DNA from: a phage
Length of the DNA stretch: 58,547 bases
Assembly (NCBI GenBank): GCA_027568095.1
Contig: GCA_027568095.1_4956.1
Strand: one strand, 5' to 3'
This document shows positions 1,410 to 58,222 of this stretch, piece by piece; within the stretch, counting starts at the first letter, position 1; the number at the start of each line of letters is the position of its first letter. Under the pieces are notes generated by a model. That model was not told the origin of the DNA and did no database searches. It was given only the letters and a program-made list of their open reading frames with translations. A program made the translations under genes and the position numbers.

Positions 1410-1616
1410 ATGTTCAGATACGTTTTAAAATTACTCGCCATCATTGTAACCTGGCTAATCATACAATCCGGGTATGACCTTCGTGTTCGTAACCAATGCT
1501 CAGACTATCAACGCATTACACGAACTGCGACAATCTACAGTCACGGTATTTGTTACGCCGCAGATAGTGACGGTCAGTTTAAAATAATTCTTGACGGTTT
1601 ACACATTATCAGATAG
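1410..1616 (+). CDS. small membrane protein (68 aa)
   Basis: CAGGAG RBS 8 nt upstream of ATG 1410; N-terminal hydrophobic helix. Confidence 0.45.
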   Translation: MFRYVLKLLAIIVTWLIIQSGYDLRVRNQCSDYQRITRTATIYSHGICYAADSDGQFKIILDGLHIIR

Positions 1617-1651
1617 ACTTCAGTTTGTGTAAAACAACTGGAGTTATCACC

Positions 1652-4960: not shown

Positions 4961-4988
4961 TTGCATAGCTCTCACCCCGTGGTAAAAT
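4961..4988 (+). promoter_or_regulatory. sigma70-like promoter for 5008 gene (TTGCAT-16-TAAAAT, TG-extended)
   Basis: -35 TTGCAT 4961-4966, -10 TAAAAT 4983-4988, then AAGGAGGG RBS and ATG 5008. Confidence 0.5.
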
Positions 4989-5007
4989 AAAAGAAAAGGA
5001 GGGTGAA

Positions 5008-9746: not shown

Positions 9747-9775
9747 ATTATCGGGGAGGGTTGGCAATCTGTCAA
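9747..9775 (-). promoter_or_regulatory. conserved-family promoter (TTGACA-17-GATAAT) for ParB-like gene
   Basis: Reverse complement of 9770-9788 is AAAATAATTCTTGACA; -10 GATAAT at 9752..9747; overlaps stop of upstream gene. Confidence 0.5.
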
Positions 9776-9778
9776 GAA

Positions 9779-10141
9779 TTATTTTAAGAAGTTGGTCAGC
9801 GGTTCGAAACGTTTTATACAATCAGCAGGTACATAATCAGTGATTGACTCCCACGAAAAACGACCGGGTTTATGTTGTAAATTAGTAGCGTTTATAACAG
9901 CAACACACCATTCATCAACAGAACCACGATAACCCATTATTGATATAGCCTCAACAGGATTAAAGGTAATGAACACGGGGTGGAAACCGTATAAATTATC
10001 ATAACCACAGGAACGGATGGGAACACCTAACCCACGTTGAAAATCAAGATCACCACGAAGAAGTTTTATCCCCGGTACGATACCTTTCATCAGGATACTT
10101 TCACGGTTTTCCACTTTAGTAATATGATACGCATCAACCAT
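9779..10141 (-). CDS. hypothetical protein (120 aa)
   Basis: ORF start overlaps stop of upstream SLOG-like gene. Confidence 0.45.
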   Translation of the reverse strand: MVDAYHITKVENRESILMKGIVPGIKLLRGDLDFQRGLGVPIRSCGYDNLYGFHPVFITFNPVEAISIMGYRGSVDEWCVAVINATNLQHKPGRFSWESITDYVPADCIKRFEPLTNFLK

Positions 10142-12291: not shown

Positions 12292-12322
12292 AACAATCAC
12301 TCCTTGTTCACTTGATGTACAG

Positions 12323-12352
12323 ACTATAGCGCACACATCTGTAATTCGTCAA
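12323..12352 (-). promoter_or_regulatory. conserved-family promoter (TTGACG-18-TATAGT)
   Basis: Reverse complement of 12347-12365 is AAAATAATTCTTGACG. Confidence 0.5.
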
Positions 12353-12381
12353 GAATTATTTTACACATCCTTGTGCAATGA

Positions 12382-14736
12382 CTAACCGTTACTCGCAGGT
12401 GGGAAAGGCACTACATTAGCTGTTGACTGAAAAGGGAGAAGACGAATACCCCTGAAACCGTTTAGTCGAACGTTATTTATATTAACAACGTCTTTTTTCA
12501 CTTTACCACGAAGTGTGGATTTAAATGCCCGACTAAATGAAGTTTTAGTCATTGCTGGACCACCTTCCTGTGTTTTCCAGAGACGATAACGACCATATAG
12601 TTCTTCAGTGTGCACCTCACCATCAGATACCAATTCGCAACAATCTCTGATAAAACTTCTAAGTGGTGATTGTTGATCCATAATTTCCTGACGTTCTTCC
12701 AGACTTGCTTTTGGTTCAGTAAACCGTCCGTTAGCACGTAACCGTTGCAAACCTTCAATCGCCCAGTTACAGATCCCAGGTAGTTCTTTCATCAGTCGTG
12801 CTTCCAGAGTGGTGTCTTCACGACCCAGGAACGAAACGTTGAATGGCAGGATCAGCAAACGGTTAGCCATTGCACCGGAATCATCAGCAAATGCCGGGAT
12901 GTTGTTAGCAGCCAGTGTCATACGTCCCGGTAAACGACCGTTCCACGCACCTTTATACTTACGATTAACCGGAATCGCATCACAACCTGTAATAGATTTG
13001 AAACGGTCCAGAATTCGGTTGCGATCAGGCCCGGACACACTGTGAGCATCACCAATAAACAGCACAGATTTATCCAGCACAGTTTCAAGTACCGCATCAC
13101 TTGCTAAACCCTCCAGTGTGATCCCTGCATATGCTTCGTCACCTACCAGTGCCTGAATAATACGACCGATCGTACCTTTACCGGAACGTGGCGCACCAAT
13201 CAACAGCATCGCTTTCTGATAGTCATACGAGTTGACAAGCATATAACCCAGCCATTCCTGCAACAGTGCAATACGTTCCTGATCACCTTCCAGAGTTGTA
13301 TTAAGAAACTGTTCAAATGCTGGCGCACGGGCAAACGGATCGTAGCTATACGGTAAAATACTGGTCGTAAAGAAATCCGGGTTATGTGCATCACATTTGC
13401 CCGTGTGTACATCCAGTATTCCGTTCTGACAAACAATATAGTGTGATACATCAACGCCGGGCCATGTTCCAAGCTCACGATCAGCCCGTGTGAATAAATA
13501 CGACAATACCTTGTACGTACCATTGATCACGTCAGCTTTTGGTTCGCTGGCAAGCATTGCCATAGAAATTTGATGTTTCAGTTCATCTTCACTGACACGT
13601 TCCCACACGCGACCGTTGAACCGGTACGGCTGTTGCTGGACGAAAATCAATGTGTTGTTCGGATAATAATTATTAACGAACGTGGATGCGTTAACCGTGT
13701 GGTTTGAACCATATGCACCTTCACCGGGTTTCACACTCATGTACGCAGGTGTTCCACCATTAGGAACGATTGTAGGCGCTGGTGTGACTGCTTTCATCAG
13801 TTCTGGTGTCAGCGTCGGTTGACTACGATAAACCGTATCACAACGTTCCACAGCGCCCAGAATTGTGTTTTCACGGTAATCCTGACGATCTGTCCATTTA
13901 CCACGAACCAGTCCGGAACGGTTAAATAGACGTTCAATACGTTCGCAATCTTTCCCGGTCCAGAAAGCAAGGTGTGAGCACAGAGCAGCATCAGCGGCAG
14001 ATGCATTGTAGTCTTTTCCCTGGTCGCTGGGATATGACACAGACAGGCGTTCAACGTTTGCATTCCACAGATCCGCAAATGACGCTTTATTACCAAATAC
14101 TGAAGCAGCACTGGACGAATTTAACGCCATTTTAATCAGTTCATCATCGTCTGCCGGGCCTGACCAGTCATCACAGGGTGCTGTTGTCCAGCGTGCGGAA
14201 CGGTCTGAACGGATACGACCATACCGGGCAATAGAATCATGAATGCCCTGGGTATAATCAATATCAACATCACCATTACCCGTGAGCGTCATCGCGACGA
14301 AACGATCACGCCAGTACATTTCCAGCCCGGTTTTCTGGTCGTTCAGACTGTTAAAACCTTCCGGTATGCTGGTATAAGCACAGATGATATGCAAACCTGT
14401 TCCTGACTGACTGACTTCAGTGTAAGCATTTGGGAAACGGTTTACGAATTCATGCGCCAGTGGTGACCATGTAGCTGTTGCCTGATCTACCAGACAGTTA
14501 TCAACATCAATAAAGAAATAAGGATCGTTTTCTGTGAATACAAAACCAACACCAGACATACCGTACATTTGTGCCATACCTAACGCGGTGTGATAGTCAG
14601 ACCAGTCGTTAGGGTTAGTGGTACTGGCTTTATAACCGTGTACCGGGCTATATGGTACTTTCGTTGGTTTTGGACGATCGGCGACTGTCTCAAGTCGCCA
14701 CATGACCCACTGTTTACGGTTCAGTAACCCTTTCAT
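12382..14736 (-). CDS. DNA primase/helicase (primase-like N-terminus + P-loop NTPase helicase)
   Basis: 784 aa; Walker A GAPRSGKGT; GGAGCG RBS. Confidence 0.65.
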   Translation of the reverse strand: MKGLLNRKQWVMWRLETVADRPKPTKVPYSPVHGYKASTTNPNDWSDYHTALGMAQMYGMSGVGFVFTENDPYFFIDVDNCLVDQATATWSPLAHEFVNRFPNAYTEVSQSGTGLHIICAYTSIPEGFNSLNDQKTGLEMYWRDRFVAMTLTGNGDVDIDYTQGIHDSIARYGRIRSDRSARWTTAPCDDWSGPADDDELIKMALNSSSAASVFGNKASFADLWNANVERLSVSYPSDQGKDYNASAADAALCSHLAFWTGKDCERIERLFNRSGLVRGKWTDRQDYRENTILGAVERCDTVYRSQPTLTPELMKAVTPAPTIVPNGGTPAYMSVKPGEGAYGSNHTVNASTFVNNYYPNNTLIFVQQQPYRFNGRVWERVSEDELKHQISMAMLASEPKADVINGTYKVLSYLFTRADRELGTWPGVDVSHYIVCQNGILDVHTGKCDAHNPDFFTTSILPYSYDPFARAPAFEQFLNTTLEGDQERIALLQEWLGYMLVNSYDYQKAMLLIGAPRSGKGTIGRIIQALVGDEAYAGITLEGLASDAVLETVLDKSVLFIGDAHSVSGPDRNRILDRFKSITGCDAIPVNRKYKGAWNGRLPGRMTLAANNIPAFADDSGAMANRLLILPFNVSFLGREDTTLEARLMKELPGICNWAIEGLQRLRANGRFTEPKASLEERQEIMDQQSPLRSFIRDCCELVSDGEVHTEELYGRYRLWKTQEGGPAMTKTSFSRAFKSTLRGKVKKDVVNINNVRLNGFRGIRLLPFQSTANVVPFPPASNG

Positions 14737-15401: not shown

Positions 15402-15904
15402 AATGTTTTAGTCCCACTAGTAAGATATTTAATCTGGTGTAAACAGTCGTCTAACGCATTGTGATAAATACCGTCACGGATAAATTCTTTTGGGTTAATA
15501 CCCAGCAAATCAACTGCTGTACGAACATCACGAACATTCCAGAACTTCCACGGGCAACGAACACCAACCGCATTAAACCATGCTTCCAGAATAGTGATGT
15601 CGAATGTGGAACCATTGCCCCACGGTTTAGCATCATGCCAGATGAATTTGGCAAAATGTTTAGCAACCTGAACAGGATCGGCAGTACCACCAAAAGCATC
15701 TTTTTGTGCTTGTTCTGACTGCTGCGACCACCACTTCATAGTGTCAGGGTCTGTGTGACCATAAGCGAGCGCATTAAAACCCATTGATGCGTAAAACGTT
15801 TCACCAATATTACCCTGACGATCAAAGTAAACAGCGCCAATTGACAGCACTGCACAACCCGGTTTAGTACCACACATTTCAATGTCAATCATCAAATCAC
15901 GCAT
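15398..15904 (-). CDS. DnaQ-like 3'-5' exonuclease (DEDDh)
   Basis: Exo I DIEMCG, Exo II NGSTFD, Exo III YHNALDD. Confidence 0.5.
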   Translation of the reverse strand: MRDLMIDIEMCGTKPGCAVLSIGAVYFDRQGNIGETFYASMGFNALAYGHTDPDTMKWWSQQSEQAQKDAFGGTADPVQVAKHFAKFIWHDAKPWGNGSTFDITILEAWFNAVGVRCPWKFWNVRDVRTAVDLLGINPKEFIRDGIYHNALDDCLHQIKYLTSGTKTL

Positions 15905-15945
15905 TACAGTTCCTTACGTTTAAAATATTTCTATGCAGATTACCG

Positions 15946-17613
15946 TCAGATTAATGAACTTGCAACCCTTGCAGCGAGTTCATTAGCTTCACGAGTACGT
16001 AACCCCTGAGCACTAAGTACATCAACACCAAACACCCTGTAAAACATCTTGTAAGCGTCATCAACGGGTATACCTTTGTCACGCTGAATACCGGCCCATG
16101 TGGTAATCATGCTACGTAATTTACGCTGTGCATCGTTCATTGCCTGAATGTTTTTCATTGCACTGTAAGCTGCAACAGGGGGTGCACCAGCGTTTAACAT
16201 TTGTTCTTTTACCGCAACAGGATCACGGTCGATTATCACAACTGCCCGGCGTAATTCTTCCAGTTCTTCAGGTGTCAGTTCACGTAAATTACCTTCTACA
16301 CGATCCGGGCCTGAGCGTTCGGCTTTTTCAGGAATGTGACCACAATACGGGCAGCACGGAAGACCAGACGGATAAGGCTTCAGACACGGGGGAATACCGT
16401 TATCAGGATCACCCTTGTTTGTGCATGTTGTATTACTGTTCCCACTGCTGTTTGACGAACGACGGTCGCGGTCATCTAAAGACCAGTTGTAGTGCTGATC
16501 GGGAAGTGGAAAACCACGGGCCAGAAATCGACGAACATTACCGACTTTATCAATAATCAGTGCTTTTTTACCGGGTTTGAAACGCAATGGGCGACCCATC
16601 TGTTGTACAAACAAAGAGTAAGATTCAGTGGGACGGTCCATTACTGCACATTCCATTGCCGGGCAATCGTACCCTTCACCGAATAAATCGTTGTTACATA
16701 GCACGAGTGTTTTACGTCGTTCAAAACGTTCCAGAATATCTGCTCGTTCCTGATTGCTGTTTCGCGAACTGATCGCTTCTGCAGGAATGCCAGCATCGCG
16801 AAATTCTTGTGCAAGTGCTTCAGCAGAATCCACATCACACGTAAACACAACAGTGAGCAAACCGTCTGCATACGTTTTCCACGTACTGACGGTATCACCA
16901 ACGATGTTTGAATCTTCCATCGCTTTTTTTAACGCAGAGGGTTTGTAATCGCCCGTAGTATGAGAAATCATTTCTGCAGTTAATTCCAGGTCTGTTTCAG
17001 CCATAATCAGACGATAATCAGCCAGATGTTGTTGACTGATTAACTCACGCATTGACGGACCAATGATCATCTGATCTGCGTAACCTGACGCATGACGACC
17101 CAAGCCTTTACCGTCAGCACGGATCGGTGTAGCTGTAACACCCAGACCTTTAGCGTTAGGGAATTTTTCCCGGCAGTCTCCCCACTGTGTGCCACGCACC
17201 AAGTGATGCGCTTCGTCGCTGAATACAAGAGACACGTCGTTGTACCATCGTTCGTACTGTTTTGTTCTTAACGTTTGTGAACTGGTAATAACGATGTCAG
17301 CGCCGGGGGAATAGGTACTGTAACCAAGCGTTTTCATCTGCTGATTAGTCGCAAATTTAACAGTGTCTTTTTGCGCTATAAATCTGTGTGCTAACCCCTG
17401 ACGAGCAACAGCCATTGCGATTTGGCTAACCAGTTCTTTACGGTGCGCCTGAATGACTTTTACACCGTCGGATTTTACCAGTTCTGCAAGCGCTCGGGTC
17501 TTTCCTGCACCCGTGGGAAGCACAAGAATCACGTCATTAGCACCGTTCGACCATGCCTGGCGCACGTTGTTAACTGCATCTTGTTGGTAATAACGAAGTG
17601 GTTGTTGACTCAC
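15946..17613 (-). CDS. superfamily 2 DNA helicase (DEAH box) with C-terminal zinc ribbon
   Basis: LPTGAGKT (Walker A), FSDEAHH (motif II), CPYCGH; GTG start with AAGGA RBS. Confidence 0.6.
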   Translation of the reverse strand: MSQQPLRYYQQDAVNNVRQAWSNGANDVILVLPTGAGKTRALAELVKSDGVKVIQAHRKELVSQIAMAVARQGLAHRFIAQKDTVKFATNQQMKTLGYSTYSPGADIVITSSQTLRTKQYERWYNDVSLVFSDEAHHLVRGTQWGDCREKFPNAKGLGVTATPIRADGKGLGRHASGYADQMIIGPSMRELISQQHLADYRLIMAETDLELTAEMISHTTGDYKPSALKKAMEDSNIVGDTVSTWKTYADGLLTVVFTCDVDSAEALAQEFRDAGIPAEAISSRNSNQERADILERFERRKTLVLCNNDLFGEGYDCPAMECAVMDRPTESYSLFVQQMGRPLRFKPGKKALIIDKVGNVRRFLARGFPLPDQHYNWSLDDRDRRSSNSSGNSNTTCTNKGDPDNGIPPCLKPYPSGLPCCPYCGHIPEKAERSGPDRVEGNLRELTPEELEELRRAVVIIDRDPVAVKEQMLNAGAPPVAAYSAMKNIQAMNDAQRKLRSMITTWAGIQRDKGIPVDDAYKMFYRVFGVDVLSAQGLRTREANELAARVASSLI

Positions 17614-17649
17614 GTATCTTTCCTTCAGCTAATATCGAATCGTGAAAAA

Positions 17650-17694
17650 AGTTTAAAATAGTTCTTGACGCATTGCAACTTATTCCTCTAACAT
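17650..17694. promoter_or_regulatory. overlapping divergent promoter pair (plus TTGACG-18-TAACAT; minus TTGCAA-17-TAAACT)
   Basis: Conserved GTTTAAAATAGTTCTTGACGCATTGCAA block between divergent operons. Confidence 0.5.
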
Positions 17695-17727
17695 CTGCAT
17701 CAACGAAAGGCGAGTGTAAAATAATTC

Positions 17728-17756
17728 TTGACAGATTACACAACACCTTTTAAAGT
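17728..17756 (+). promoter_or_regulatory. conserved-family promoter (TTGACA-17-TAAAGT)
   Basis: AAAATAATTCTTGACAGATTACA motif upstream of 17789 gene. Confidence 0.5.
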
Positions 17757-17788
17757 TAGTGACAACCAAACAACAAGAGGAAAACGCA

Positions 17789-18550
17789 ATGTTCGAAGTT
17801 AAATTACTTGTAACTGCTCCGGGTCTGGAAACTGCGATCAACAATCTGGCAAATGCTATTGCGACTGGTGCAGCACCGCTCATGGCTGCACAGGGCGACG
17901 GTATCACTAAAGAAATCGTTTCTGTCGTTGCTGAATCACTGCCTGTTGTATCTGCAACAACTGAAGATATTGATGATAACGAAACCAGCACTGAAGAGTT
18001 CGACAAATGGGGTCTGCGTCACGATCCGCGTATCCACACTGACAGTAAATCTCTGAACAAAGGTGATGGTCTGTGGCGTCAAAAGAAAAAACTGGATGAA
18101 GCGTTTGTTGACGGTGTTAAACGTGAACTTATTGCTGAAGCAGTTGAAGCAGGGCGTTATACCGGACCTGCAGAACTTGCACCGGGTTATGTAGCACCTG
18201 TTGATCCTGCTCCAGCGGTTCCTGCCGCTCCGGTAGCTCCAGTTGTACCAGCAGCACCGGCTGTACCAGTCGAGCAACCTGTAACCACGGATCCGGCTAA
18301 AGTTTATAACACCCAGGTTCTTCAGTCAGCACTGATGCAGATGTTTGGACAAATTACGGGTGAACGTGCCGCGCCACTAAGTCAGCGGATCATGGGACTG
18401 TATGAAACTCAGAACGTGATGCAGATTGATGACCCGGTAAAACTGAAGTCTATCATCGAACTGATTGAACGTATTAACGCTACCCCAGCATCTGCTGAAG
18501 ATATTGTCGGTCAGGCTGAATCTGTTAAACAAATGGGTGGAGCATTCTGA
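17789..18550 (+). CDS. hypothetical protein with Pro/Ala/Val-rich linker
   Basis: GAGGAA RBS upstream of ATG 17789; first gene of plus replication block. Confidence 0.5.
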   Translation: MFEVKLLVTAPGLETAINNLANAIATGAAPLMAAQGDGITKEIVSVVAESLPVVSATTEDIDDNETSTEEFDKWGLRHDPRIHTDSKSLNKGDGLWRQKKKLDEAFVDGVKRELIAEAVEAGRYTGPAELAPGYVAPVDPAPAVPAAPVAPVVPAAPAVPVEQPVTTDPAKVYNTQVLQSALMQMFGQITGERAAPLSQRIMGLYETQNVMQIDDPVKLKSIIELIERINATPASAEDIVGQAESVKQMGGAF

Positions 18551-19695
18551 TGACCAGTCACGCTACCTTTAGTGCCAGTGGATCAAAACGTTGGTTAGCT
18601 TGTCCGGGTAGCGTTCAACTGTCACAGCGGATTGACTATGTAGAACCATCATCACCCAGTGCTGAAGAAGGTACAGCCGGACACTGGGTGTTAGAACAGA
18701 AGATTAAAGGCAAACCGCCATTAATGCCGTGTCTTGCTCCTAACGGTGTTCAGGTTACTGAAGACATGCATATTTACGCGGATGACTTTATAGCAGATGT
18801 TCTTTCAGTTGGTGCGAAACTTGATCCGCTGTTTTCAGAAGTTCGCATTCACATTGACTGGTTGTTACCCGGTCAGTACGGAACCTGTGATTATCGCTGG
18901 TATGACTTTAATACTGATACGCTTTATGTATGGGATTATAAATACGGTCATGTTGCAGTTGAAGCAGTTGATAATTCACAGGGGGTCTATTACGCACTGG
19001 ACCAACGTTGCATCGACACCGTTAAGCGCGTTGTGTTCACAATTGTTCAGCCACGGGCTTATCACCCACTCGGACCTGTAAGACGATGGGAGTTTAACCG
19101 GGCAACATTGATGGAATGGGCTGAACGATTTAAACACGGGTTTAACGAAGCACATAAACCAGACGCACCGTTAAATGTTGGTAGTCATTGTCATTACTGT
19201 CCGGCGCGTGGTATGTGTCCGGCGATGTATGAGAGGATTTTAGAATTGGCTACTGTTCTTGATGCACCACCATCACTTACGCCAGAAGAAGTAGCGCGTC
19301 GTCTGGCACTTCTTGAAGAACTGTATACGCGTTCTTCTGAAGCAAAAACAGCGTTACATACTCAGGGGTTACATTTCGTACGTATGGGTAAAGCTTTACC
19401 GGGTTTTAAACTTGCAACAAAGCAAACCAGACGTCAGCTTACGGACGAAGGAAAACTGATCGGTGCTGCACCTATGTTTGGTGTAAACCCTGAAACATTG
19501 TACGAACGTAAATTAAAACCATTGTTAACACTGGAAAAATCACTGCCTCCGGCACTTGTTGACATGTGTACGACAAAACCAGAAGGTCAGCCAGTTTTAG
19601 TACCTGACAGTGACCCGCGTAAAGGTCATAGCACACTGGCAGAATCTGTTTTTAATAAACCCGTGACGATGCCGACTGGCGCACGTCCACTTTAA
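18550..19695 (+). CDS. PD-(D/E)xK nuclease with C-terminal Cys cluster (Cas4/RecB-like)
   Basis: 381 aa; N-terminal WLACPGS and C-terminal HCHYCPARGMCPAMY cysteine cluster. Confidence 0.5.
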   Translation: MTSHATFSASGSKRWLACPGSVQLSQRIDYVEPSSPSAEEGTAGHWVLEQKIKGKPPLMPCLAPNGVQVTEDMHIYADDFIADVLSVGAKLDPLFSEVRIHIDWLLPGQYGTCDYRWYDFNTDTLYVWDYKYGHVAVEAVDNSQGVYYALDQRCIDTVKRVVFTIVQPRAYHPLGPVRRWEFNRATLMEWAERFKHGFNEAHKPDAPLNVGSHCHYCPARGMCPAMYERILELATVLDAPPSLTPEEVARRLALLEELYTRSSEAKTALHTQGLHFVRMGKALPGFKLATKQTRRQLTDEGKLIGAAPMFGVNPETLYERKLKPLLTLEKSLPPALVDMCTTKPEGQPVLVPDSDPRKGHSTLAESVFNKPVTMPTGARPL

Positions 19696-19710
19696 AAGAA
19701 GGTTAATAAC

Positions 19711-20610
19711 ATGGCACAGAAAGAATCTTTTGTAACTCCGGTTGGTCGTCTGGTTGGCGGTTCTTTTTTCGATATCAACACTCATGACCACGAAAATAAA
19801 CCGTTAGCACCTGAAAAACACAACTGGTGGGTTGGTCTGGCGTTTCCTAAAACAGCGGCGAACTGGTGGGAAGAACAAGGTGAACTGGGTGCGGTATTCC
19901 AGGCGATCATGCGAGCGGCTAACTCACACTATGTGAACGGCGAACCACAACAACCCACTTTCGCATGGAAAATTATTAATGGTGACGATCCGAAACATGC
20001 GAGTAAAACTGGTTATGCTGGTCACTGGGTAATTGGTTTCTCACGCAACGTGGCTATTGACGCGTGTCCGGTTTATAACGCAGCGTACCAGCTAGTTATT
20101 GATAAAAATCTGGCGAAAAAAGGTTATTATTACCGTATCAGCGGATCATCTGTTGCAAACGGTCGTACAGGTAATCAGGCTGGTGTGTATATCAACATGG
20201 AAATGGCGCAATTGCTTTATGCAGGTGAAGAAATCATTTCCGGTCCGGCTCCTGCTTCTGTGTTCGGTGCTGCTCCTGCAATGCCTGAAGGCGCACGTCC
20301 GATCGGCGTAACACCAGCGGCAGCACCTGTAGCAGCACCTGTAGCAGCGGCAGCACCTGTAGCAGCGCCTACACCAGCGGCAGCACCTGTAGCAGCGGCA
20401 GCACCTGTAGCAGCGCCTACACCAGCGGCAGCACCTGTAGCAGCGCCTACACCAGCGGCAGCACCTGTGAAGGTAATGACTGAAAAAGCAGGTGGTGCTA
20501 CTTACGAACAGTTTATTGCGCAAGGTTGGAACGATGAACAACTGATCGCTAATGGTTATATGGTAATGACCACCCCGGCCCCGAATTTTCTCAACGGTAA
20601 CGGTTACTGA
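19711..20610 (+). CDS. possible ssDNA-binding-like protein with PA-rich repeat linker and C-terminal FIAxGWND motif
   Basis: Follows the nuclease gene; (AAPVAAPTPA)n repeats then YEQFIAQGWNDEQLIANGY; SSB assignment is inference. Confidence 0.4.
   Translation: MAQKESFVTPVGRLVGGSFFDINTHDHENKPLAPEKHNWWVGLAFPKTAANWWEEQGELGAVFQAIMRAANSHYVNGEPQQPTFAWKIINGDDPKHASKTGYAGHWVIGFSRNVAIDACPVYNAAYQLVIDKNLAKKGYYYRISGSSVANGRTGNQAGVYINMEMAQLLYAGEEIISGPAPASVFGAAPAMPEGARPIGVTPAAAPVAAPVAAAAPVAAPTPAAAPVAAAAPVAAPTPAAAPVAAPTPAAAPVKVMTEKAGGATYEQFIAQGWNDEQLIANGYMVMTTPAPNFLNGNGY
20311..20468 (+). repeat. imperfect 27-30-bp tandem repeats (core gcagcacctgtagcagc), in-frame
   Basis: Direct inspection; core occurs about 7 times. 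Confidence 0.7.
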
Positions 20611-22547: not shown

Positions 22548-22586
22548 ACCGTATAGAATTATTTAAAACTTATTGAGACGATAACA

Positions 22587-25244: not shown

Positions 25245-25617
25245 ATGGTAACTGGAAGTGTGGACCGTCTTTCAGTGTTTTCCAGTCACCACCCCATTCA
25301 ACAGGAATATTCAGTTCTTTCGCAGCCTGTTTAAATGCAGTGGCAATCTGTTCGTAATATTTCCATTCCCATGATCCGGCAGATGTAGGATAAGCAAATA
25401 CATCCACGGCGTGACCCGAAATATGGCGACTGTTCATCGTCTGACTTTTACCTGTAGCAACCAGTTGTCGTTGTCGTTCAACAGTTCGTAAACCTTCTGT
25501 GATACCGAAATCAACGGGTGATAACTGAAGTGCCCGACGCACGATTTTCACAAGATCCGGGTTAACCCCTTTCAGATTATTTTCACTTCTCTGACTGAAT
25601 TTAAAGTTACTCATCAT
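25225..25617 (-). CDS. endolysin, L-alanyl-D-glutamate peptidase (M15-like)
   Basis: HISGHAVDV and GGDW metal-binding motifs. Confidence 0.7.
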   Translation of the reverse strand: MMSNFKFSQRSENNLKGVNPDLVKIVRRALQLSPVDFGITEGLRTVERQRQLVATGKSQTMNSRHISGHAVDVFAYPTSAGSWEWKYYEQIATAFKQAAKELNIPVEWGGDWKTLKDGPHFQLPYAKYPA

Positions 25618-25934
25618 TTACTCCCGGTTTTACGTTGTTCCGCTTTCAAACCTTCAATAACAACTTTCAGGTCATTTGTTGACTGTGTTAGTTCTTTAAC
25701 ACTGGTGAGAATTTCAGCATTCTGTGTGGCTTGATATTCGATTTTGATATCGTGAACATCAACACGAGATTCAACACGCTTTGCCAGATTAAGAGCCTCA
25801 TGCGCATAAGTTTTTGCATCTGCAATATCTTTTTCGTTAGAATTGATTTGGTTTTGGGTTACCCCATAACCTACCAAACCTGTAGCTACAAATGCTATTA
25901 CAGGCCAATACCTTAATAATGAGTTATCAGACAT
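25614..25934 (-). CDS. lysis-associated membrane protein (holin/antiholin candidate)
   Basis: N-terminal TM WPVIAFVATGLVGYGV followed by coiled coil; first gene of lysis cassette. Confidence 0.4.
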   Translation of the reverse strand: MSDNSLLRYWPVIAFVATGLVGYGVTQNQINSNEKDIADAKTYAHEALNLAKRVESRVDVHDIKIEYQATQNAEILTSVKELTQSTNDLKVVIEGLKAEQRKTGSK

Positions 25935-25960
25935 TGTTCTACACTCCAGGAGACTTAAAG

Positions 25961-43613: not shown

Positions 43614-43642
43614 AGGGTAGTTGTGTCGGTGTAATCCGTCAA
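43614..43642 (-). promoter_or_regulatory. conserved-family promoter (TTGACG-17-TACCCT)
   Basis: Reverse complement of 43637-43655 is AAAATAATTCTTGACG. Confidence 0.5.
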
Positions 43643-43941
43643 GAATTATTTTACGTATAGATTCATGGGAAGTATGCGACTCCCTATACCTTTTAAACCT
43701 CTCCTACTTGCAGCAACTTTTACTACTTATACTACTCTTCTGTTTATCTATGTTTATTATGTTTTCTATAAAAAGAATAAGATAGAGAGGGGTTGGTTAA
43801 AAAATAAACATGACGAAATCTATGAATTTATGATCTACTAATACAGATTCAGTATTAGCTGTAACTCAAAATCATGAAACCCATGTAAAACCATGTACAG
43901 TTAGTACACGTTCTGTATTAGCTGTATCTTTAAAATAATTC

Positions 43942-43970
43942 TTGACGGATTACAGACGGTAGGGTATCTT
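43942..43970 (+). promoter_or_regulatory. conserved-family promoter (TTGACG-17-TATCTT)
   Basis: TAAAATAATTCTTGACGGATTACA upstream of 44017 gene. Confidence 0.5.
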
Positions 43971-45375: not shown

Positions 45376-46299
45376 TTGACTAAACGAAAAACAGAACATG
45401 AAAGACTTTCAGAGATTTCAGAAATTTGCAAAGGTACTATTTATCATTTTGTTAGATTCTTAAATGGTTACAAGAATGCATCAAGTAGACTAATAATGCA
45501 TTGTCAAAAACATGGTGAATGGGAAACATCCTCTGATTTGATAGTGAATGGTAGAAATTTTTGTAAGAAATGTAGTAATGAGAACATAGCACTAAAAAAT
45601 AGTATAGACCAAAAAGAATATGAAAAACGTATCACTAATATTTGTAACTCGCGAGGTTATAAATTTATAAAATGGATTGAAAATTATCATGGTGTTCGCA
45701 CAAAAGCATTAATAGAATGTACTAAACATGGTCAGTGGGTGTCTTCCGGCAACAACATTACTATAAATAAAAGTTTCTGTAAGAAATGTTATTTTGAAAA
45801 TAAAAAGACACCATTACATATAAGAGAAAAAGAGATAAATGAAAAATGTTTGTCATTAAATTATGAATTTTTGGGTTGGGTCAATGGGTATGTTAATCAA
45901 TACAGTAAGATAAAAATTAAATGTCAAAAACATGGTGAATTTATAACAACACCTACAACATTATTACATACTGGCAGACGTTGTGCAGGTTGCGCTACAA
46001 CAGGTTTTAAAATCAAAAACAAAGCTAGCTTATATGTTTTAAGATCTCTATGTGGTAGTTATGTTAAAATAGGTATTAGCAACAATGTTGAAAATAGAAT
46101 AAAAATATTGAAGAAAAGAACACCTTTCGAATTCAATGTTATTGAAATATATAATTCTGATGGTAAAACCATTCGTTCACTTGAAAAAGATTTTCATTCT
46201 CATTTTGAGTCAGCAGAGTTGACTGGGTTCGATGGTTGTACTGAGTGGTTAAAATGGAATCCAAATATAACCACTCTAATACGTATAATCACGGGATAA
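45376..46299 (+). CDS. GIY-YIG/T5orf172-like nuclease domain protein with three Cys-rich repeats
   Basis: C-terminal LYVLRS...YVKIGIS...R...E pattern; three CxKHGxW...CKKC repeats; visibly AT-rich. Confidence 0.5.
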   Translation: MTKRKTEHERLSEISEICKGTIYHFVRFLNGYKNASSRLIMHCQKHGEWETSSDLIVNGRNFCKKCSNENIALKNSIDQKEYEKRITNICNSRGYKFIKWIENYHGVRTKALIECTKHGQWVSSGNNITINKSFCKKCYFENKKTPLHIREKEINEKCLSLNYEFLGWVNGYVNQYSKIKIKCQKHGEFITTPTTLLHTGRRCAGCATTGFKIKNKASLYVLRSLCGSYVKIGISNNVENRIKILKKRTPFEFNVIEIYNSDGKTIRSLEKDFHSHFESAELTGFDGCTEWLKWNPNITTLIRIITG

Positions 46300-47248
46300 C
46301 ATTTATATCTTGAGGGAGAGAATAAGCAACCCTGCAACGGCAATTAATCACATTCGCTGCACTACCGTTAGGATCACGAGGGAACATAAGTGGTCCTAAC
46401 GGCGTTGAAAACGGTCTGTCCATTGGTATCCAACCATTCGTTTCACCTGTGGAAATATGCGCGTCACGTGTCCGACCATCCTTCCTATACAACCAACGTT
46501 TTAATAATTCATTACTGATCGACCCCGTAACCTGACCCTGACGAATAGCCTGGTCCTGACCAACGGATATAGCACGAAGTGATTCAGTACGCGCTATTGT
46601 CTCTGTACGCTGTTTTACGTAACGCAAGCGTGTCTGTTCGATTATCTGGTCAATCTTCGCCTGTGATAGTTTCCCGGCACTTACAGCGTTCTTTGCACTG
46701 TCTGTAACAGTGGTCAGACTATTCACATAACCTGCTTCACCTTTTTCCAGTGCTGATCGCAGACGTTGAACCGTCATTTCCTGCCGTGTGGTTAACCCTA
46801 TTGATGATCGAAAATCACGGGCTATCTGACGCGGATTTCGTCCAGTTACCACACCTTGGTTAACAGCAATCTGAACAGCTTTGACTGTTTCGTCACTGAC
46901 TTCACGGATCAGTTGTCCGACATAATTGTTGATGTATGTACTGACCTGTGGGGTGACCAGACTGAACACAACCGGACCTGTTACAGCCGCTTTCGGTAGA
47001 ACCTGAACGACTACACGACCTGATTCGGCGATCGCATCTTCAATAACCGGGCGCAACTGTGCACTAAGTTCATCAGGGAGTGTTTCAAGAATGGGAAGTA
47101 ATCCGGCAATACCCTGAGTTTCAATGATGTATTCCAGGTTAGCTAACGACTCACTACGACGCACGTTTTCCCACACGACATCAAGTGCTTCGCGAATGCG
47201 AGCGTCATACTTGTCTGAAATATCCGGGTATGGGTCTTTAGTAGCCAT
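46289..47248 (-). CDS. head morphogenesis protein (Mu F-like position)
   Basis: 319 aa between portal and scaffold genes. Confidence 0.45.
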   Translation of the reverse strand: MATKDPYPDISDKYDARIREALDVVWENVRRSESLANLEYIIETQGIAGLLPILETLPDELSAQLRPVIEDAIAESGRVVVQVLPKAAVTGPVVFSLVTPQVSTYINNYVGQLIREVSDETVKAVQIAVNQGVVTGRNPRQIARDFRSSIGLTTRQEMTVQRLRSALEKGEAGYVNSLTTVTDSAKNAVSAGKLSQAKIDQIIEQTRLRYVKQRTETIARTESLRAISVGQDQAIRQGQVTGSISNELLKRWLYRKDGRTRDAHISTGETNGWIPMDRPFSTPLGPLMFPRDPNGSAANVINCRCRVAYSLPQDINVIP

Positions 47249-47254
47249 AAAAAA

Positions 47255-47286
47255 GCCTCAGTTAACACACTGAGGCCGATTATATC
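47255..47286 (-). promoter_or_regulatory. TG-extended -10 (TGATATAAT) followed by GCCTCAG/CTGAGGC hairpin and U6 abutting the start codon
   Basis: Minus strand reads cgTGaTATAATcggCCTCAGtgtgttaaCTGAGGcttttttATGgct. Confidence 0.45.
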
Positions 47287-47291
47287 ACGTG

Positions 47292-47425
47292 TTACGGGCG
47301 TGGAAGATTACGTTTTTCAGTTCCCTGAATGCGGTTCTTAACTTCGCGGATCTGTTCTTCCAGAAACTGTAACGCTTTTTGCGCTCGTTCGTAGTCTATT
47401 TCAAGTTCACGTAATAATTTTTCAT
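47292..47425 (-). CDS. small coiled-coil protein (44 aa)
   Basis: ATGA overlap with upstream HTH gene stop. Confidence 0.3.
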
Positions 47426-47616
47426 CTTTTGTCACGAGTATAACGTCCTTTAAAACCGGGTCTGACCATCAACTTACCATTCACCACCGCGTGAAATTCA
47501 CCATTGGTGTCATCCATATATTTATAAACTGTCGCTTTGTTACACCCAATCCGCCTGGCAAGTTCTGTCACGTTGCCATAAACGGTGGGTAGTAATTCAG
47601 AAATAGTTTGAACCAT
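47422..47616 (-). CDS. small HTH DNA-binding protein (64 aa)
   Basis: VTELARRIGCNKATVYKYM helix-turn-helix. Confidence 0.5.
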   Translation of the reverse strand: MVQTISELLPTVYGNVTELARRIGCNKATVYKYMDDTNGEFHAVVNGKLMVRPGFKGRYTRDKR

Positions 47617-47831
47617 TATAATAGTTCCCCTCTGTCACGTGCCACACGTTCGATTAACCGAATCGTGGCAGACCGTTTATCACCGTCATAAGGTTCTTCA
47701 TAACGAAGATCATCTGTAAAAACGATCTGTTCACGGTCACAGTGAATAACAATAATGTCGTATTTAACCAGAAGGTCGAATGCTTGTTCACCGTTCATTG
47801 TTAAGATATTCCTCTGCGTGTAATGCAGCAT
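47616..47831 (-). CDS. small acidic hypothetical protein (71 aa)
   Basis: ORF; operon context. Confidence 0.4.
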   Translation of the reverse strand: MLHYTQRNILTMNGEQAFDLLVKYDIIVIHCDREQIVFTDDLRYEEPYDGDKRSATIRLIERVARDRGELL

Positions 47832-48606
47832 AGCTGATCAAGTCTTCCAGACTGTCACGATGTGGTGTTTCAGTGTTGGAATAGAAACGAACCGCTTTTA
47901 ACAACATCAGAAACAACCACCCTTCGCCCGGTGTTAAGTCGCGCCCGGTAATTGTGTTAAACGCAGCAACGATTTTAGCTGACGAACGTTCCTGACCAGA
48001 CGTGTCATACTGCTTACCACGTTCTGTCAGTAGCTGTTCAGCCTGTTTCAGTAAGTCAGACGCTGTTGATGGTTGTTGAACGGGTGTGAATGTACACCGA
48101 CAATTTGACGGTGGTGTTGGTCTAGGTGCACTGGTTACTGTTGATGGTTGCTGAACAGGTGTGAATAGATGCGCCAGGTGTAAGTCTGCTAATGACTGTT
48201 GTTCATATTTTGTTATTTCATCATTGGTGCGAACAGCATAACCATGTTCGACTAACTGGTCGTCATTCCACCCATTTGCAATGAATTCGTCATAAGTGTT
48301 CTCACGGGCTTTCGGTGTCATAAACAGTTTTGTTTTGACAGGTGTTGCAGGACCACAAGGGCGTTTTTCAAAGATTTCAAAGTCATCAGCATTCTCCATG
48401 ATTTGTGGCGGATTTCTTAAAATTGGTGCGTGAATTGAACCATCAGACCATGCAAAAGTGTTTGTTGTCTTATTAAGAACAACACATGTAGCCCAGTCTG
48501 GCGCTTCACTCCAGTCTACTTGTTGTGTTTTCATTCGATAGTCAAGTGATTGTTTTTCACTTTCAGCATCATATGCAGGTATGTTCCACGGTTGTTCAAA
48601 CATCAT
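47788..48606 (-). CDS. hypothetical protein with internal FIAxGWNDxQL motif and TPVQQPST repeats
   Basis: YDEFIANGWNDDQLVEHGY matches C-terminus of 19711..20610; duplicated FTPVQQPST. Confidence 0.5.
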   Translation of the reverse strand: MMFEQPWNIPAYDAESEKQSLDYRMKTQQVDWSEAPDWATCVVLNKTTNTFAWSDGSIHAPILRNPPQIMENADDFEIFEKRPCGPATPVKTKLFMTPKARENTYDEFIANGWNDDQLVEHGYAVRTNDEITKYEQQSLADLHLAHLFTPVQQPSTVTSAPRPTPPSNCRCTFTPVQQPSTASDLLKQAEQLLTERGKQYDTSGQERSSAKIVAAFNTITGRDLTPGEGWLFLMLLKAVRFYSNTETPHRDSLEDLISYAALHAEEYLNNER

Positions 48607-48634
48607 TTATTCCTCATTGGTTAACGTTGACAGA

Positions 48635-48679
48635 AGTTTAAAATAATTCTTGACACATTGCAAGCGGTCACACTAACAT
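48635..48679. promoter_or_regulatory. overlapping divergent promoter pair (plus TTGACA-18-TAACAT; minus TTGCAA-17-TAAACT)
   Basis: Same conserved block as 17650-17694. Confidence 0.5.
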
Positions 48680-48713
48680 TTGTCACGAACGAAACACACT
48701 GAGGAATCAAACA

Positions 48714-48881
48714 ATGACTAATGAAGATGTTGCTAAACAATTGCGAGAAATCGCGGATCTGATTGATAGTGGTGAACTTTTACCAATTCGTGTCCGTAAA
48801 TACACCGAGATTTTAGATCGACAAGGTTCTCTTGAAATTGATTTTTTACTAGTAAAACAAGAGGAATTAAACAATGACTAA
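48714..48881 (+). CDS. small protein (55 aa)
   Basis: GAGGAA RBS 7 nt upstream; overlaps dUTPase start. Confidence 0.4.
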   Translation: MTNEDVAKQLREIADLIDSGELLPIRVRKYTEILDRQGSLEIDFLLVKQEELNND

Positions 48882-49377
48882 CCTGTATATCAAAAAACTA
48901 ACACCCCACGCTGAACTTCCGACACGTGCAACACCAGACAGCGCAGGGTTAGACGTTCGTGCTTGTCTGTGGGAAGAATCGGTAACCATATTCACAGAAT
49001 CAGGCGCTAAAGTGGAACGTCCGGTTGTTGCTGGAACAATCGCATTATGGCCCGGCGACCGCGCTATGATCCCCACTGGTCTGAAAATGTCAGTTGATAA
49101 CGGATATTGCATTAAATTTTACCCACGTTCCGGCATGAGTCTTAAACACGGTTTGTCACTGATCAACTGTGTGGGTATCGGTGATCGTGATTACAAAGAA
49201 GAATACTACGTTACGCTGACTAACCACGGGAAGAAATTACAGACTATCGCAGACGGTGAACGCGTTTGTCAGCTTATGGTTGAACGTGTCGAACCTGTTA
49301 ATCTGGTTGAAGTGGAAGAATTACCAGATGTTGATAGTCAGCGTAATGGCGGGTTTGGATCAACAGGACGGGTGTGA
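48874..49377 (+). CDS. dut: dUTP pyrophosphatase (dUTPase)
   Basis: Motifs ATPDSAGLDV, GIGDRDYKEEY, RNGGFGSTGR. Confidence 0.85.
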   Translation: MTNLYIKKLTPHAELPTRATPDSAGLDVRACLWEESVTIFTESGAKVERPVVAGTIALWPGDRAMIPTGLKMSVDNGYCIKFYPRSGMSLKHGLSLINCVGIGDRDYKEEYYVTLTNHGKKLQTIADGERVCQLMVERVEPVNLVEVEELPDVDSQRNGGFGSTGRV

Positions 49378-50179: not shown

Positions 50180-50430
50180 CTATGACGATATTTAAAAACG
50201 CAATGGGCGATACTGTCGCGTATCTGCCGAAAGTCATTATTGCAGATCCATCCTGTGTTGATTACCCACACAGCAAGCAATCTGAAGCGACCTACAACGA
50301 CCTGTGCGCTGATATAATGCGTGGTTGTGACATCGGTATTGAACGACTTCAGAAACTTCGGGAGGAATACGAAAAACGGTCTGTACAGGCCGCAATGGGC
50401 TTACCGCCTGTATACGATAATTTAAAATAA
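50173..50430 (+). CDS. hypothetical protein (85 aa)
   Basis: ORF overlapping upstream stop. Confidence 0.45.
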   Translation: MLTMTIFKNAMGDTVAYLPKVIIADPSCVDYPHSKQSEATYNDLCADIMRGCDIGIERLQKLREEYEKRSVQAAMGLPPVYDNLK

Positions 50431-50433
50431 TTC

Positions 50434-50462
50434 TTGACGGATTACACAAGGACGTGTAACCT
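50434..50462 (+). promoter_or_regulatory. conserved-family promoter (TTGACG-17-TAACCT)
   Basis: TTTAAAATAATTCTTGACGGATTACA; overlaps stop of upstream gene. Confidence 0.5.
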
Positions 50463-52573: not shown

Positions 52574-52655
52574 GTTCTACAGGCTCCATACGGTTTACGG
52601 TTCTTAACGTATGTTATATCAGTGATGGTTTTTTTGCACGGTGTTAAAATAATTC

Positions 52656-52684
52656 TTGACGAATTACAAACGTACGATTATGCT
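52656..52684 (+). promoter_or_regulatory. conserved-family promoter (TTGACG-17-TATGCT)
   Basis: GTTAAAATAATTCTTGACGAATTACA upstream of 52716 gene. Confidence 0.5.
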
Positions 52685-58123: not shown

Positions 58124-58193
58124 CGGTCCGTTTGTAACTGTTCTGTACAGTTTACCATGGGTGACAGGTGGTGACAGAGATTTAAAATAATTC

Positions 58194-58222
58194 TTGACAG
58201 ATTACAGAGGTGGTGTCAGACT
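58194..58222 (+). promoter_or_regulatory. conserved-family promoter element (TTGACA, weak -10)
   Basis: TTTAAAATAATTCTTGACAGATTACA upstream of 58248 gene. Confidence 0.35.

What the first reader, a model, noticed from the sequence alone, without database searches (positions are those of the whole stretch)
17650..17694. Compact back-to-back promoter pair sharing one 45-bp block (also at 48635-48679)
At both 17650-17694 and 48635-48679 the conserved block reads GTTTAAAATA(A/G)TTCTTGAC(G/A)CATTGCAA. On the plus strand this gives TTGACR-18-TAACAT; on the minus strand the palindromic TTGCAA acts as -35 with TAAACT 17 bp downstream, lying inside the UP-like region of the plus promoter. Both copies sit exactly where a minus operon (helicase; the 47292-48606 operon) diverges from a plus operon, so two RNA polymerases would compete for overlapping DNA.
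Basis: seen in the sequence. Interest (0 to 1): 0.4.

Follow-up and report, generated by a model that had tools for sequence, protein, structure and literature searches.

The report
Overlapping divergent phage promoter pair
Two short stretches of this 9NA/Sasha-like phage genome most likely each hold two overlapping bacterial-type promoters that fire in opposite directions, an ordinary but neatly conserved layout built from a promoter module the phage repeats eleven times.

Summary
The 28-bp block is exact at 17651-17678 and 48636-48663. It gives TTGACR-18-TAACAT on the plus strand and TTGCAA-17-TAAACT on the minus strand.

Its core, AAAATAATTCTTGAC, is also found unchanged in phage 9NA and Klebsiella phage Carvaje.

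The minus-strand match is only 8 of 12 hexamer positions, which is no better than chance on sequence alone. Other evidence supports it:
- It is the best leftward candidate in both gaps.
- It sits 22-30 nt before the leftward start codons.
- It scores far above the same position in the other nine family copies.
- At the exonuclease/helicase junction the same layout, with each promoter's -35 lying inside the other's spacer, recurs in Salmonella, Klebsiella, Proteus, Morganella and Edwardsiella phages, even where the -10 sequence differs.
- Two Vibrio phages use a single palindromic TTGCAA as the -35 for both directions.

No transcript data exist, so leftward initiation and polymerase competition are inferred. 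I classify it as a new member of a known kind, overlapping divergent sigma-70 promoters. Interest is modest.

The parts
17655..17669 (+). Family core AAAATAGTTCTTGAC at site 1: an A/T-rich tract resembling an UP element, plus the first five bases of the -35. It is the only one of the 11 copies that departs from the 15-mer (G at 17661).
17665..17694 (+). Rightward promoter P1 at site 1: TTGACG-18-TAACAT. Predicted start is about 17699-17702.
   Evidence: 11.34 bits
17650..17678 (-). Leftward promoter at site 1: -35 TTGCAA (17678-17673), 17-bp spacer, -10 TAAACT (17655-17650). Predicted start is A17643, 30 nt before the helicase GTG at 17613.
17728..17756 (+). Second, stronger rightward family promoter P2: TTGACA-17-TAAAGT (family core at 17718-17732). 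It lies 63 bp downstream of P1.
   Evidence: 14.22 bits; annotated as a promoter in AVIO78A
15946..17613 (-). Helicase gene, the first gene of the leftward replication operon, which continues to the primase at 12382-14736.
   Evidence: (ResIII, Helicase_C)
17789..19695 (+). First two genes of the rightward replication operon: a 253-aa protein and the DUF2800/PD-(D/E)XK exonuclease. DNA polymerase follows at 20691-22547.
48640..48654 (+). Family core AAAATAATTCTTGAC at site 2.
48650..48679 (+). Rightward promoter at site 2: TTGACA-18-TAACAT. Predicted start is about 48685-48687.
   Evidence: 12.63 bits; annotated as a promoter in AVIO78A
48635..48663 (-). Leftward promoter at site 2: -35 TTGCAA (48663-48658), 17-bp spacer, -10 TAAACT (48640-48635). 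Predicted start is A48628, 22 nt before the ATG at 48606.
46289..48606 (-). Leftward operon at site 2: DUF6378 protein (47788-48606), a 71-aa ORF, NinH (47422-47616) and the Mu F-like head morphogenesis protein (46289-47248).
48714..49377 (+). Start of the rightward operon at site 2: a 55-aa ORF, then dUTPase (48874-49377).
1581..1619 (+). Family promoter copy, TTGACG-17-TAGACT. No close divergent gene.
9747..9785 (-). Family promoter copy, TTGACA-17-GATAAT.
12323..12362 (-). Family promoter copy, TTGACG-18-TATAGT.
43614..43652 (-). Family promoter copy, TTGACG-17-TACCCT, at the head of the long structural-gene operon.
43932..43970 (+). Family promoter copy, TTGACG-17-TATCTT.
50424..50462 (+). 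Family promoter copy, TTGACG-17-TAACCT.
52646..52684 (+). Family promoter copy, TTGACG-17-TATGCT, at the portal junction. The opposite-strand position reads TTGTAA/TAACAC, which lacks the final T of the -10.
58184..58222 (+). Family promoter copy, TTGACA-17-CAGACT, at the large-terminase junction. The opposite-strand position reads CTGTAA/TAAATC, which is not promoter-like.

Best explanation
Each 45-bp block holds two overlapping, divergent promoters of the ordinary host type (sigma-70, with -35 and -10 elements).

The rightward promoter is one copy of a module the phage repeats 11 times: TTTAAAATAATTC-TTGACR-(G/C)ATTRCA...TAnnnT. In this module an A/T-rich tract and a near-consensus -35 do most of the work.

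The leftward promoter is made from the other strand of the same module. The spacer sequence CATTGCAA reads as the -35 TTGCAA. The upstream edge AGTTTA reads as the -10 TAAACT, exactly 17 bp away.

The two -35 hexamers lie on opposite strands 2 bp apart, so each sits inside the other promoter's spacer. The predicted start points are about 57-58 bp apart.

At site 1 the pair drives the two replication operons: helicase-primase leftward and exonuclease-polymerase rightward. At site 2 it drives the DUF6378-NinH-MuF operon leftward and the dUTPase operon rightward.

Shown: the sequence elements, their positions relative to the genes, and their conservation in other phages.

Inferred: that host RNA polymerase actually starts leftward at these sites; that one polymerase bound in one direction blocks binding in the other, because each covers roughly -55 to +20; and that the stronger rightward promoter limits the weaker leftward one.
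For: 1. Rightward promoters are family members. Eleven copies share 15 or more invariant bases, and all have TTGACR-17/18-TAnnnT ahead of a same-strand gene. The core is identical at matching positions in 9NA and Carvaje.

2. Leftward candidates. TTGCAA-17-TAAACT is the top minus-strand hit in both gaps at 9.92 bits, against 6.15 and 6.27 for the next best. The tool's own scan found no minus-strand site of 9/12 or better. The gaps between the module core and the leftward start codons are only 42 and 34 bp, so any leftward promoter must overlap the module. An A lies 7 nt after the -10, followed by a 22-30 nt leader with a ribosome-binding site.

3. Within-family control. Scoring the same opposite-strand position in every family copy gives 9.92 at the two sites against 6.15 or less in the other nine. 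In 9NA the values are 10.63 and 9.92 against 7.74 or less. In Carvaje the value is 10.63 at site 1 against 1.58 or less.

4. Comparison at the exonuclease/helicase junction. The best promoter on each strand forms the same overlapping pair in Sasha, SP069, 9NA, Carvaje, KPN_H2, Proteus phage Isfahan, Morganella phage Henu15 and 9 IMG/VR contigs. The helicase-side -10 changes (TAAACT, TATGAT, TAAAAT) but keeps TAnnnT at 17 bp and a TTTCA start context. In Henu15 and Isfahan the strong and weak partners are swapped.

5. More distant phages (helicase about 40% identical). Edwardsiella MSW-3 and Enterobacter Mulvp2 have the same arrangement of one -35 inside the other's spacer. Two Vibrio phages use one palindromic TTGCAA as the -35 for both directions.

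6. The stringent pattern TTGNNA-N17-TANNNT is depleted in the window: 7 occurrences against 13.75 +/- 4 expected. At least three of the seven lie directly ahead of genes on the right strand; three more are on the correct strand but 300-450 nt from the next listed ORF or ahead of an internal gene, and one is probably chance.

7. Steric exclusion at overlapping promoters, with repression of the weaker partner when one direction is highly active, has been shown experimentally for E. coli bidirectional promoters (PMC12825309).
Against: - No transcript 5' ends, reporter data or in vitro transcription exist for any phage of this group in the held literature.
- The leftward match is weak, 4 of 6 in each hexamer. 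Sites this good arise by chance about once per 2.4 kb of single strand.
- The two window sites are paralogous copies and close relatives are nearly identical, so they are not independent observations.
- TTGCAA also occurs in family copies with no leftward gene, at the portal junction and ahead of the ParB-like gene in relatives. It is therefore partly a by-product of the family consensus.
- At site 2, Carvaje has a 17-bp deletion that removes TAAACT and the predicted start. The only candidate left is a weaker, shifted one: TTGCAA-17-TAATCT, 7.75 bits.
- Short gaps between divergent genes force promoters to overlap geometrically, so overlap by itself need not be selected.
- The position-weight matrix used hexamer frequencies recalled from memory.
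Confidence: 0.7

Rival explanations
1. Only the rightward family promoter works. The minus-strand TTGCAA-17-TAAACT is an accident of the family consensus: ATTRCA in the spacer and TTTA ahead of the core. The leftward operons would then be transcribed in some other way, for example from an activator-dependent or extended -10 promoter, or by read-through from further upstream.
For: - The match is at chance level as a sequence.
- Every family copy is within one to three base changes of the same opposite-strand pattern, and TTGCAA appears in copies without leftward genes.
- Other leftward genes appear to use different signals. The large terminase has a conserved TGGTAAACT and the portal gene a conserved TGATATAACAT, with unconserved -35 regions.
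- Carvaje lost the site-2 element.
Against: - No better leftward candidate exists in either gap.
- Sequence upstream on the minus strand is antisense to the rightward operons.
- The opposite-strand score is highest at exactly the two tight junctions in three genomes.
- The -10 changes sequence but keeps its key bases and spacing across genera. In Henu15 and MSW-3 the helicase-side partner at the same position is a strong promoter, at 14.5 and 11.9 bits.
Confidence: 0.2
2. The invariant module (AAAATAATTCTTGAC plus RGATTRCA) is mainly the binding site of a phage-encoded or host regulator that controls all family promoters. On this view the two blocks are switch points: when the regulator occupies the rightward promoter, the leftward one is released or activated.
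For: - Fifteen to eighteen invariant bases in 11 copies, identical across three genera, is more than sigma-70 recognition needs.
- Morganella phage Henu15 has its own lineage-specific version, TTYAAARTATCGCTTGAC.
- Degenerate copies with a destroyed -35 persist in antisense orientation at 15918-15943 and 22551-22565 and are conserved in 9NA and Carvaje.
Against: - No conserved inverted repeat of the kind expected for an operator is present.
- The A-tract at -46 to -37 fits an ordinary UP-element half-site (from memory of the published consensus).
- Lineage-specific uniformity can arise from recombination between copies.
- No candidate regulator was identified here.
Confidence: 0.1

Closest known systems
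Overlapping divergent promoters (the 'overlapping' class in Beck and Warren's 1988 review of divergent promoters; Tn10 tetA/tetR is an example; both recalled from memory)
   Same: Two sigma-70 promoters on opposite strands have RNA polymerase binding regions that overlap, so both cannot be occupied at once. They serve divergent operons separated by a very short gap.
   Different: No operator or repressor is evident here. The pair is built from one copy of a promoter module repeated across the genome. The -35 hexamers are 2 bp apart on opposite strands.
Bidirectional promoters with a shared -10 element (Warman et al. 2021, as described in PMC12825309)
   Same: One short DNA segment is read in both directions. 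Polymerases exclude each other sterically, and competition matters when one direction is strong.
   Different: That class shares the -10 element, with start points 18 (also 10 or 23) bp apart. Here the -10 elements are 33 bp apart, the predicted starts are about 57-58 bp apart, and the shared part is the -35 and spacer region.
Repeated near-identical early-promoter modules in phage genomes, such as the promoter-stem-loop (PeSL) modules of T4-type phages (recalled from memory)
   Same: A near-identical host-type promoter module is repeated many times ahead of small gene clusters that are interspersed among conserved genes.
   Different: No stem-loop accompanies the module. A role in recombination was not tested. 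Here the module also heads the main structural operon (43652, minus strand).
Phage lambda PR/PRM divergent promoters (recalled from memory)
   Same: Divergent phage promoters sit in one short control region.
   Different: The lambda starts are about 82 bp apart, the promoters do not overlap, and they are coupled through repressor sites. No such sites were found here.

Membership tests
Sigma-70 promoter with -35 and -10 elements (rightward member) | -35 close to TTGACA, a 16-18 bp spacer, and a -10 with A at position 2 and T at position 6 | tested here: met
   TTGACG-18-TAACAT (9 of 12) and TTGACA-18-TAACAT (10 of 12); 11.34 and 12.63 bits.
Sigma-70 promoter with -35 and -10 elements (rightward member) | Placed ahead of a same-strand gene with a plausible leader and ribosome-binding site, and recurring at other gene starts | tested here: met
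   Eleven family copies each lie 60-70 bp before a start codon. The same positions are occupied in 9NA and Carvaje.
Sigma-70 promoter with -35 and -10 elements (leftward member) | Hexamers and spacing | tested here: inconclusive
   TTGCAA-17-TAAACT is 8 of 12, with the key -10 bases present and optimal spacing. It falls below the scan threshold, and sites of this quality are at chance frequency.
Sigma-70 promoter with -35 and -10 elements (leftward member) | Conserved position and key bases in related genomes | tested here: met
   Site 1 is kept in all 16 nearer relatives examined (7 phage records and 9 IMG/VR contigs) and in distant phages. Site 2 is kept in the Sasha-type phages and 9NA but lost in Carvaje.
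Sigma-70 promoter with -35 and -10 elements (both members) | Transcription actually starts 6-8 nt after the -10 | not testable with these tools
   No 5'-end data were found for this phage group.
Bidirectional promoter with a shared -10 (Warman/Grainger definition) | Divergent starts on either side of, or within, one shared -10 element, typically 18 (also 10 or 23) bp apart | tested here: not met
   The -10 elements are at 17650-17655 and 17689-17694, and the predicted starts are about 57-58 bp apart. Definition taken from PMC12825309.
Overlapping divergent promoters | Divergent promoters whose core elements or polymerase footprints overlap | tested here: met
   The cores span 17650-17678 (minus strand) and 17665-17694 (plus strand), overlapping by 14 bp. 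Each -35 lies in the other's spacer, and site 2 is the same. Footprint overlap is inferred from the general -55 to +20 footprint.
UP element (binding site for the C-terminal domain of the polymerase alpha subunit) | A/T-rich tract at about -60 to -38 matching the UP consensus, and dependence on the alpha C-terminal domain | tested here: inconclusive
   AAAATAATT lies at about -46 to -38 and resembles the proximal half-site (consensus recalled from memory). It is invariant in the family. Henu15 has TATCGC next to its -35 instead. Dependence on alpha cannot be tested here.

The most novel reading that the evidence does not exclude
The overlapping pair could be a selected, mutually exclusive toggle. 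It has been kept for a long time between the two replication operons of a broad group of siphophages, from 9NA-like phages to Edwardsiella and Vibrio phages, where it reduces to a single shared palindromic -35.

On this reading, each firing of the exonuclease-polymerase promoter excludes the helicase-primase promoter, and the reverse. That would fix the ratio of the two operons or make their expression anticorrelated.

A phage factor that recognises the invariant 15-mer might also flip all such junctions at a set time in infection.
Probability: 0.12. Interest if true: 0.55.

Novelty: new member of a known kind. Interest (0 to 1): 0.3.

Why it matters
If the leftward promoters are real, they are the only promoter found ahead of the helicase and primase genes of this phage. 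(Family promoters at 12362 and 9785 serve the genes downstream of the primase.) They are also the only promoter found for the operon containing the head-morphogenesis gene, so they matter for any transcription map of 9NA/Sasha-like phages. That group includes phage Bas82 of the BASEL collection.

The layout also gives a compact natural test case of about 45 bp for interference between RNA polymerases at overlapping promoters that share the -35 and spacer region rather than the -10.

The comparison across phages suggests that tight coupling of the two replication operons is old in this group. Otherwise this is a routine kind of bacterial and phage gene organisation.

Tried and rejected
- **IMG/VR scan for TTCTTGACRCATTGCAA.** It gave 118 stretches. 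About 100 belong to an unrelated conserved coding sequence and only about 17 come from 9NA-like phages. These were useful mainly for showing that TTGCAA also occurs in family copies at the portal junction and ahead of the ParB-like gene.
- **Rfam search of the whole window.** No matches.
- **Inverted-repeat search for operators.** Nothing at site 1. Site 2 has an imperfect 20-bp palindrome that is not shared with site 1.
- **Literature.** No paper in the held library contains the motif. No transcript-mapping study of this phage group was found. The main genomics paper on 9NA-like phages (Zeng et al. 2019, J Virol, PMC6819911) is not held, so I could not check whether the promoter family is described there. 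The 9NA genome announcement says nothing about promoters. The GenBank records for 9NA, Sasha and Carvaje carry no promoter features at these junctions.
- **Idea rejected: TTGCAA is a deviation specific to the two bidirectional copies.** It is a frequent variant of the family spacer.
- **Idea rejected: membership of the shared -10 bidirectional promoter class.** The geometry does not fit.
- **Shewanella phage SppYZU01.** Uninformative, because the annotated helicase start overlaps the only promoter candidate.

Full report
**What the window is.** The two stretches compared (15900-19700 and 47200-50200) are 95-97% identical to Sashavirus/Nonanavirus phages (Sasha, Sergei, Solent, AVIO78A, Bas82), in reverse orientation relative to the GenBank records. 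These are virulent relatives of Salmonella phage 9NA, in which many small genes are interspersed among the virion genes (PMC4153490). Pfam confirms the flanking genes:
- helicase, 15946-17613, minus strand
- DUF2800/PD-(D/E)XK exonuclease, 18550-19695, plus strand
- DUF6378 protein, 47788-48606, minus strand
- NinH, 47422-47616, minus strand
- Mu F-like head protein, 46289-47248, minus strand
- dUTPase, 48874-49377, plus strand

**Checking the observation.**
- The 28-bp block is exact at 17651-17678 and 48636-48663, with none expected by chance.
- The plus-strand promoters TTGACG-18-TAACAT and TTGACA-18-TAACAT are found by the consensus scan.
- The minus-strand TTGCAA-17-TAAACT is present at 17678-17650 and 48663-48635.
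- It matches only 8 of 12 hexamer positions and is missed by the scan's 9-of-12 threshold.
- In a position-weight scan (hexamer frequencies recalled from memory) it scores 9.92 bits, which is the 99.96th percentile.
- The window holds 48 sites at least that good, against 64 +/- 9 in shuffles. As a bare sequence match it is therefore not above chance. Its exact recurrence reflects that the two blocks are paralogous copies.

- The core AAAATAATTCTTGAC occurs 11 times in the window, with one copy carrying a single G.
- The copies align without gaps to TTTAAAATAATTCTTGAC-RGATTRCA-...-TAnnnT. There are 15 or more invariant columns, and each copy sits 60-70 bp before a same-strand start codon.
- The same core is present at matching positions in 9NA and in Klebsiella phage Carvaje. 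Morganella phage Henu15 has its own version, TTYAAARTATCGCTTGAC.
- Site 1 also has a second, stronger family promoter 63 bp downstream: TTGACA-17-TAAAGT at 17728-17756, 14.22 bits. That one, not P1, is annotated as a promoter in AVIO78A.
- No record examined annotates a leftward promoter.

**Is the leftward promoter real? Four lines of indirect evidence.**

1. Necessity and position.
   - The helicase and DUF6378 operons begin 42 and 34 bp from the family core.
   - Everything further upstream on the minus strand is antisense to the rightward operons.
   - TTGCAA-17-TAAACT is the best minus-strand candidate in both gaps by about 3.7 bits.
   - An A lies 7 nt after the -10 at both sites, followed by a 30-nt or 22-nt leader with a ribosome-binding site.

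2. Within-family control. I scored the same opposite-strand position in every family copy.

| Genome | Tight divergent junctions | Other copies |
|---|---|---|
| Window | 9.92 at both sites | 6.15 or less (nine copies) |
| 9NA | 10.63 and 9.92 | 7.74 or less |
| Carvaje | 10.63 at site 1 | 1.58 or less |

   The copies at the portal and terminase junctions, which have 73 and 61 bp of room, lack the final T of the -10 at this position.

3. Conservation at the exonuclease/helicase junction.
   - The top promoter on each strand forms the same overlapping pair in Sasha, SP069, 9NA, Carvaje, KPN_H2, Proteus phage Isfahan, Morganella phage Henu15 and nine IMG/VR contigs.
   - The helicase-side promoter varies in sequence: TTGCAA-17-TAAACT, TTGCAA-17-TATGAT, TTTACA-17-TAAAAT and TTGACG-17-TAAAAT.
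   - It keeps the spacing, the TAnnnT pattern and a TTTCA start context. This holds although the sequence between promoter and helicase has been remodelled: a small ORF is present in 9NA-type phages and the helicase N-terminus differs in Sasha-type phages.
   - In Henu15 and Isfahan the strong and weak partners are swapped.
   - Henu15 carries a second exact copy of the 32-bp block where only the TTGCAA direction has a downstream gene.

4. More distant phages, with helicase about 40% identical.
   - Edwardsiella MSW-3 has the two -35 hexamers 4 bp apart and shares CGTCAAGAACT with the window.
   - Enterobacter Mulvp2 has them 5 bp apart.
   - Two Vibrio phages use one palindromic TTGCAA as the -35 for both directions.
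   - Pectobacterium PEAT2 has a plain back-to-back pair.

In addition, the stringent pattern TTGNNA-N17-TANNNT is under-represented in the window: 7 occurrences against 13.75 +/- 4 expected. At least three of the seven lie directly ahead of genes on the correct strand. Three more are on the correct strand but 300-450 nt from the next listed ORF or ahead of an internal gene, and one is probably chance.

**Evidence that cuts the other way.**
- TTGCAA is a common variant of the family spacer. It also occurs at the portal junction and ahead of the ParB-like gene in relatives, where no leftward promoter is needed.
- At site 2, Carvaje has a 17-bp deletion that removes TAAACT and the predicted start. 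That leaves only a weaker, shifted candidate.
- Close relatives are nearly identical, so they add little independent information.
- Short gaps force overlap regardless of selection.
- No transcript data exist.

**Mechanism.**
- The rightward core spans 17665-17694 and the leftward core spans 17650-17678. They share 14 bp.
- The two -35 hexamers are on opposite strands 2 bp apart, so each lies in the other's spacer. The leftward -10 lies at about -51 to -46 of the rightward promoter, inside its A/T-rich upstream tract.
- The predicted starts are about 57-58 bp apart.
- RNA polymerase covers roughly -55 to +20 (established knowledge), so the two cannot be occupied together.
- Experiments on E. 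coli bidirectional promoters show that such steric competition is negligible at low activity. It represses the weaker partner when one direction is strongly active (PMC12825309).
- The likely result here is that the rightward family promoter dominates and caps leftward output. That is inference only.
- The single departure from the invariant 15-mer (G17661) is in P1 at site 1, the one place with a back-up rightward promoter. This fits some relaxation or tuning of P1, but is speculative.

**Comparison with known systems.**
- This works like the classical overlapping divergent promoters.
- It is not a member of the shared -10 bidirectional class, because the -10 elements are 33 bp apart and the starts about 57-58 bp apart rather than about 18.
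- No operator-like repeat is conserved, and no RNA family matches.

**Verdict.** It is a new member of a known kind and of modest interest. The comparative result, a tightly coupled divergent promoter pair kept between the two replication operons across a broad group of phages, is the most interesting by-product.

Noticed in passing
window 58149-58157 (minus strand) and 52611-52621 (minus strand): Upstream of the large terminase gene, TGGTAAACT followed by GTACAGAAC is conserved in the window, 9NA and Carvaje, while the -35 region is not. This looks like an extended -10 promoter. Upstream of the portal gene, TGATATAACATACGTTAAGAA is conserved in the same way. The leftward late genes may therefore use a different promoter type from the family module.
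   Followed up: partly
window 15918-15943 (plus strand) with 15937-15965 (minus strand); window 22551-22565 (minus strand) with 22531-22559 (plus strand): Two degenerate family copies have a destroyed -35 (TTCTATGC and TTCTATAC) and lie antisense inside operons. Both are conserved in 9NA and Carvaje. Each overlaps a promoter-like site on the gene strand: TTGCAA-17-TAATCT ahead of the gene starting at 15904, and TTGCAC-17-TAGAAT ahead of the gene at 22587. They may be relics of bidirectional modules in which one direction decayed.
   Followed up: partly
window 12306-12316 (minus strand), 52691-52701 (plus strand), 58229-58239 (plus strand): Three family promoters share a leader motif, CATCAANTGAAC(N2-4)GGAG, just after the -10. 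Several Carvaje and 9NA copies have it too. With one mismatch allowed it is not enriched in the window, but the three exact copies are all in leaders. Its function is unknown.
   Followed up: partly
window 4713-4811 and 43736-43823, within the non-coding regions 4566-5007 and 43653-43931: Two large non-coding regions share a stretch of about 100 bp, including 56 identical bases. They also carry short repeated units (CTATGACAGGATTAACTGTAACACTA three times at 4832-4971, and TCTATGTT-type repeats). Henu15 also has a repeated element (GTTGCAGTTTAAGTCG...) clustered at two loci. These could be replication origins or packaging sites.
   Followed up: no
window 25892-25934 and 26230-26258 (minus strand): The tailspike-like ORF (25892-28279, plus strand) and the first lysis-cluster ORF (25614-25934, minus strand) diverge with overlapping ORF starts and no family promoter. 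The best leftward promoter-like site, TTGGCA-17-TAAAAT at 13.3 bits, lies about 300 bp inside the tailspike ORF.
   Followed up: no
window 20285-20498 and 5542-5667: Tandem 12/18/30-nt and 21-nt repeats lie inside coding regions. They encode Ala/Pro/Val-rich repeats in the 299-aa protein at 19711-20610, which matches a Gp2.5-like ssDNA-binding protein in 9NA.
   Followed up: no
L129 (Morganella phage Henu15) 40200-40240: Two family-type modules face away from each other and share a palindromic A/T centre (GTCAAGCGATATTTTAAAATAATGCTTGCAA). This is a different back-to-back layout at the deaminase/dUTPase-side junction, and it lies inside an annotated ORF (Gp39) that may be mis-called.
   Followed up: no
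L263 1104-1156 and L267 465-517 (Vibrio phages 1.251.O and 1.022.O): A single palindromic TTGCAA serves as the -35 for both a helicase-direction promoter (18 bp to TATACT) and a promoter towards the DUF2800 operon (17 bp to TATAGT). This is a shared -35 bidirectional layout that I have not seen described.
   Followed up: partly
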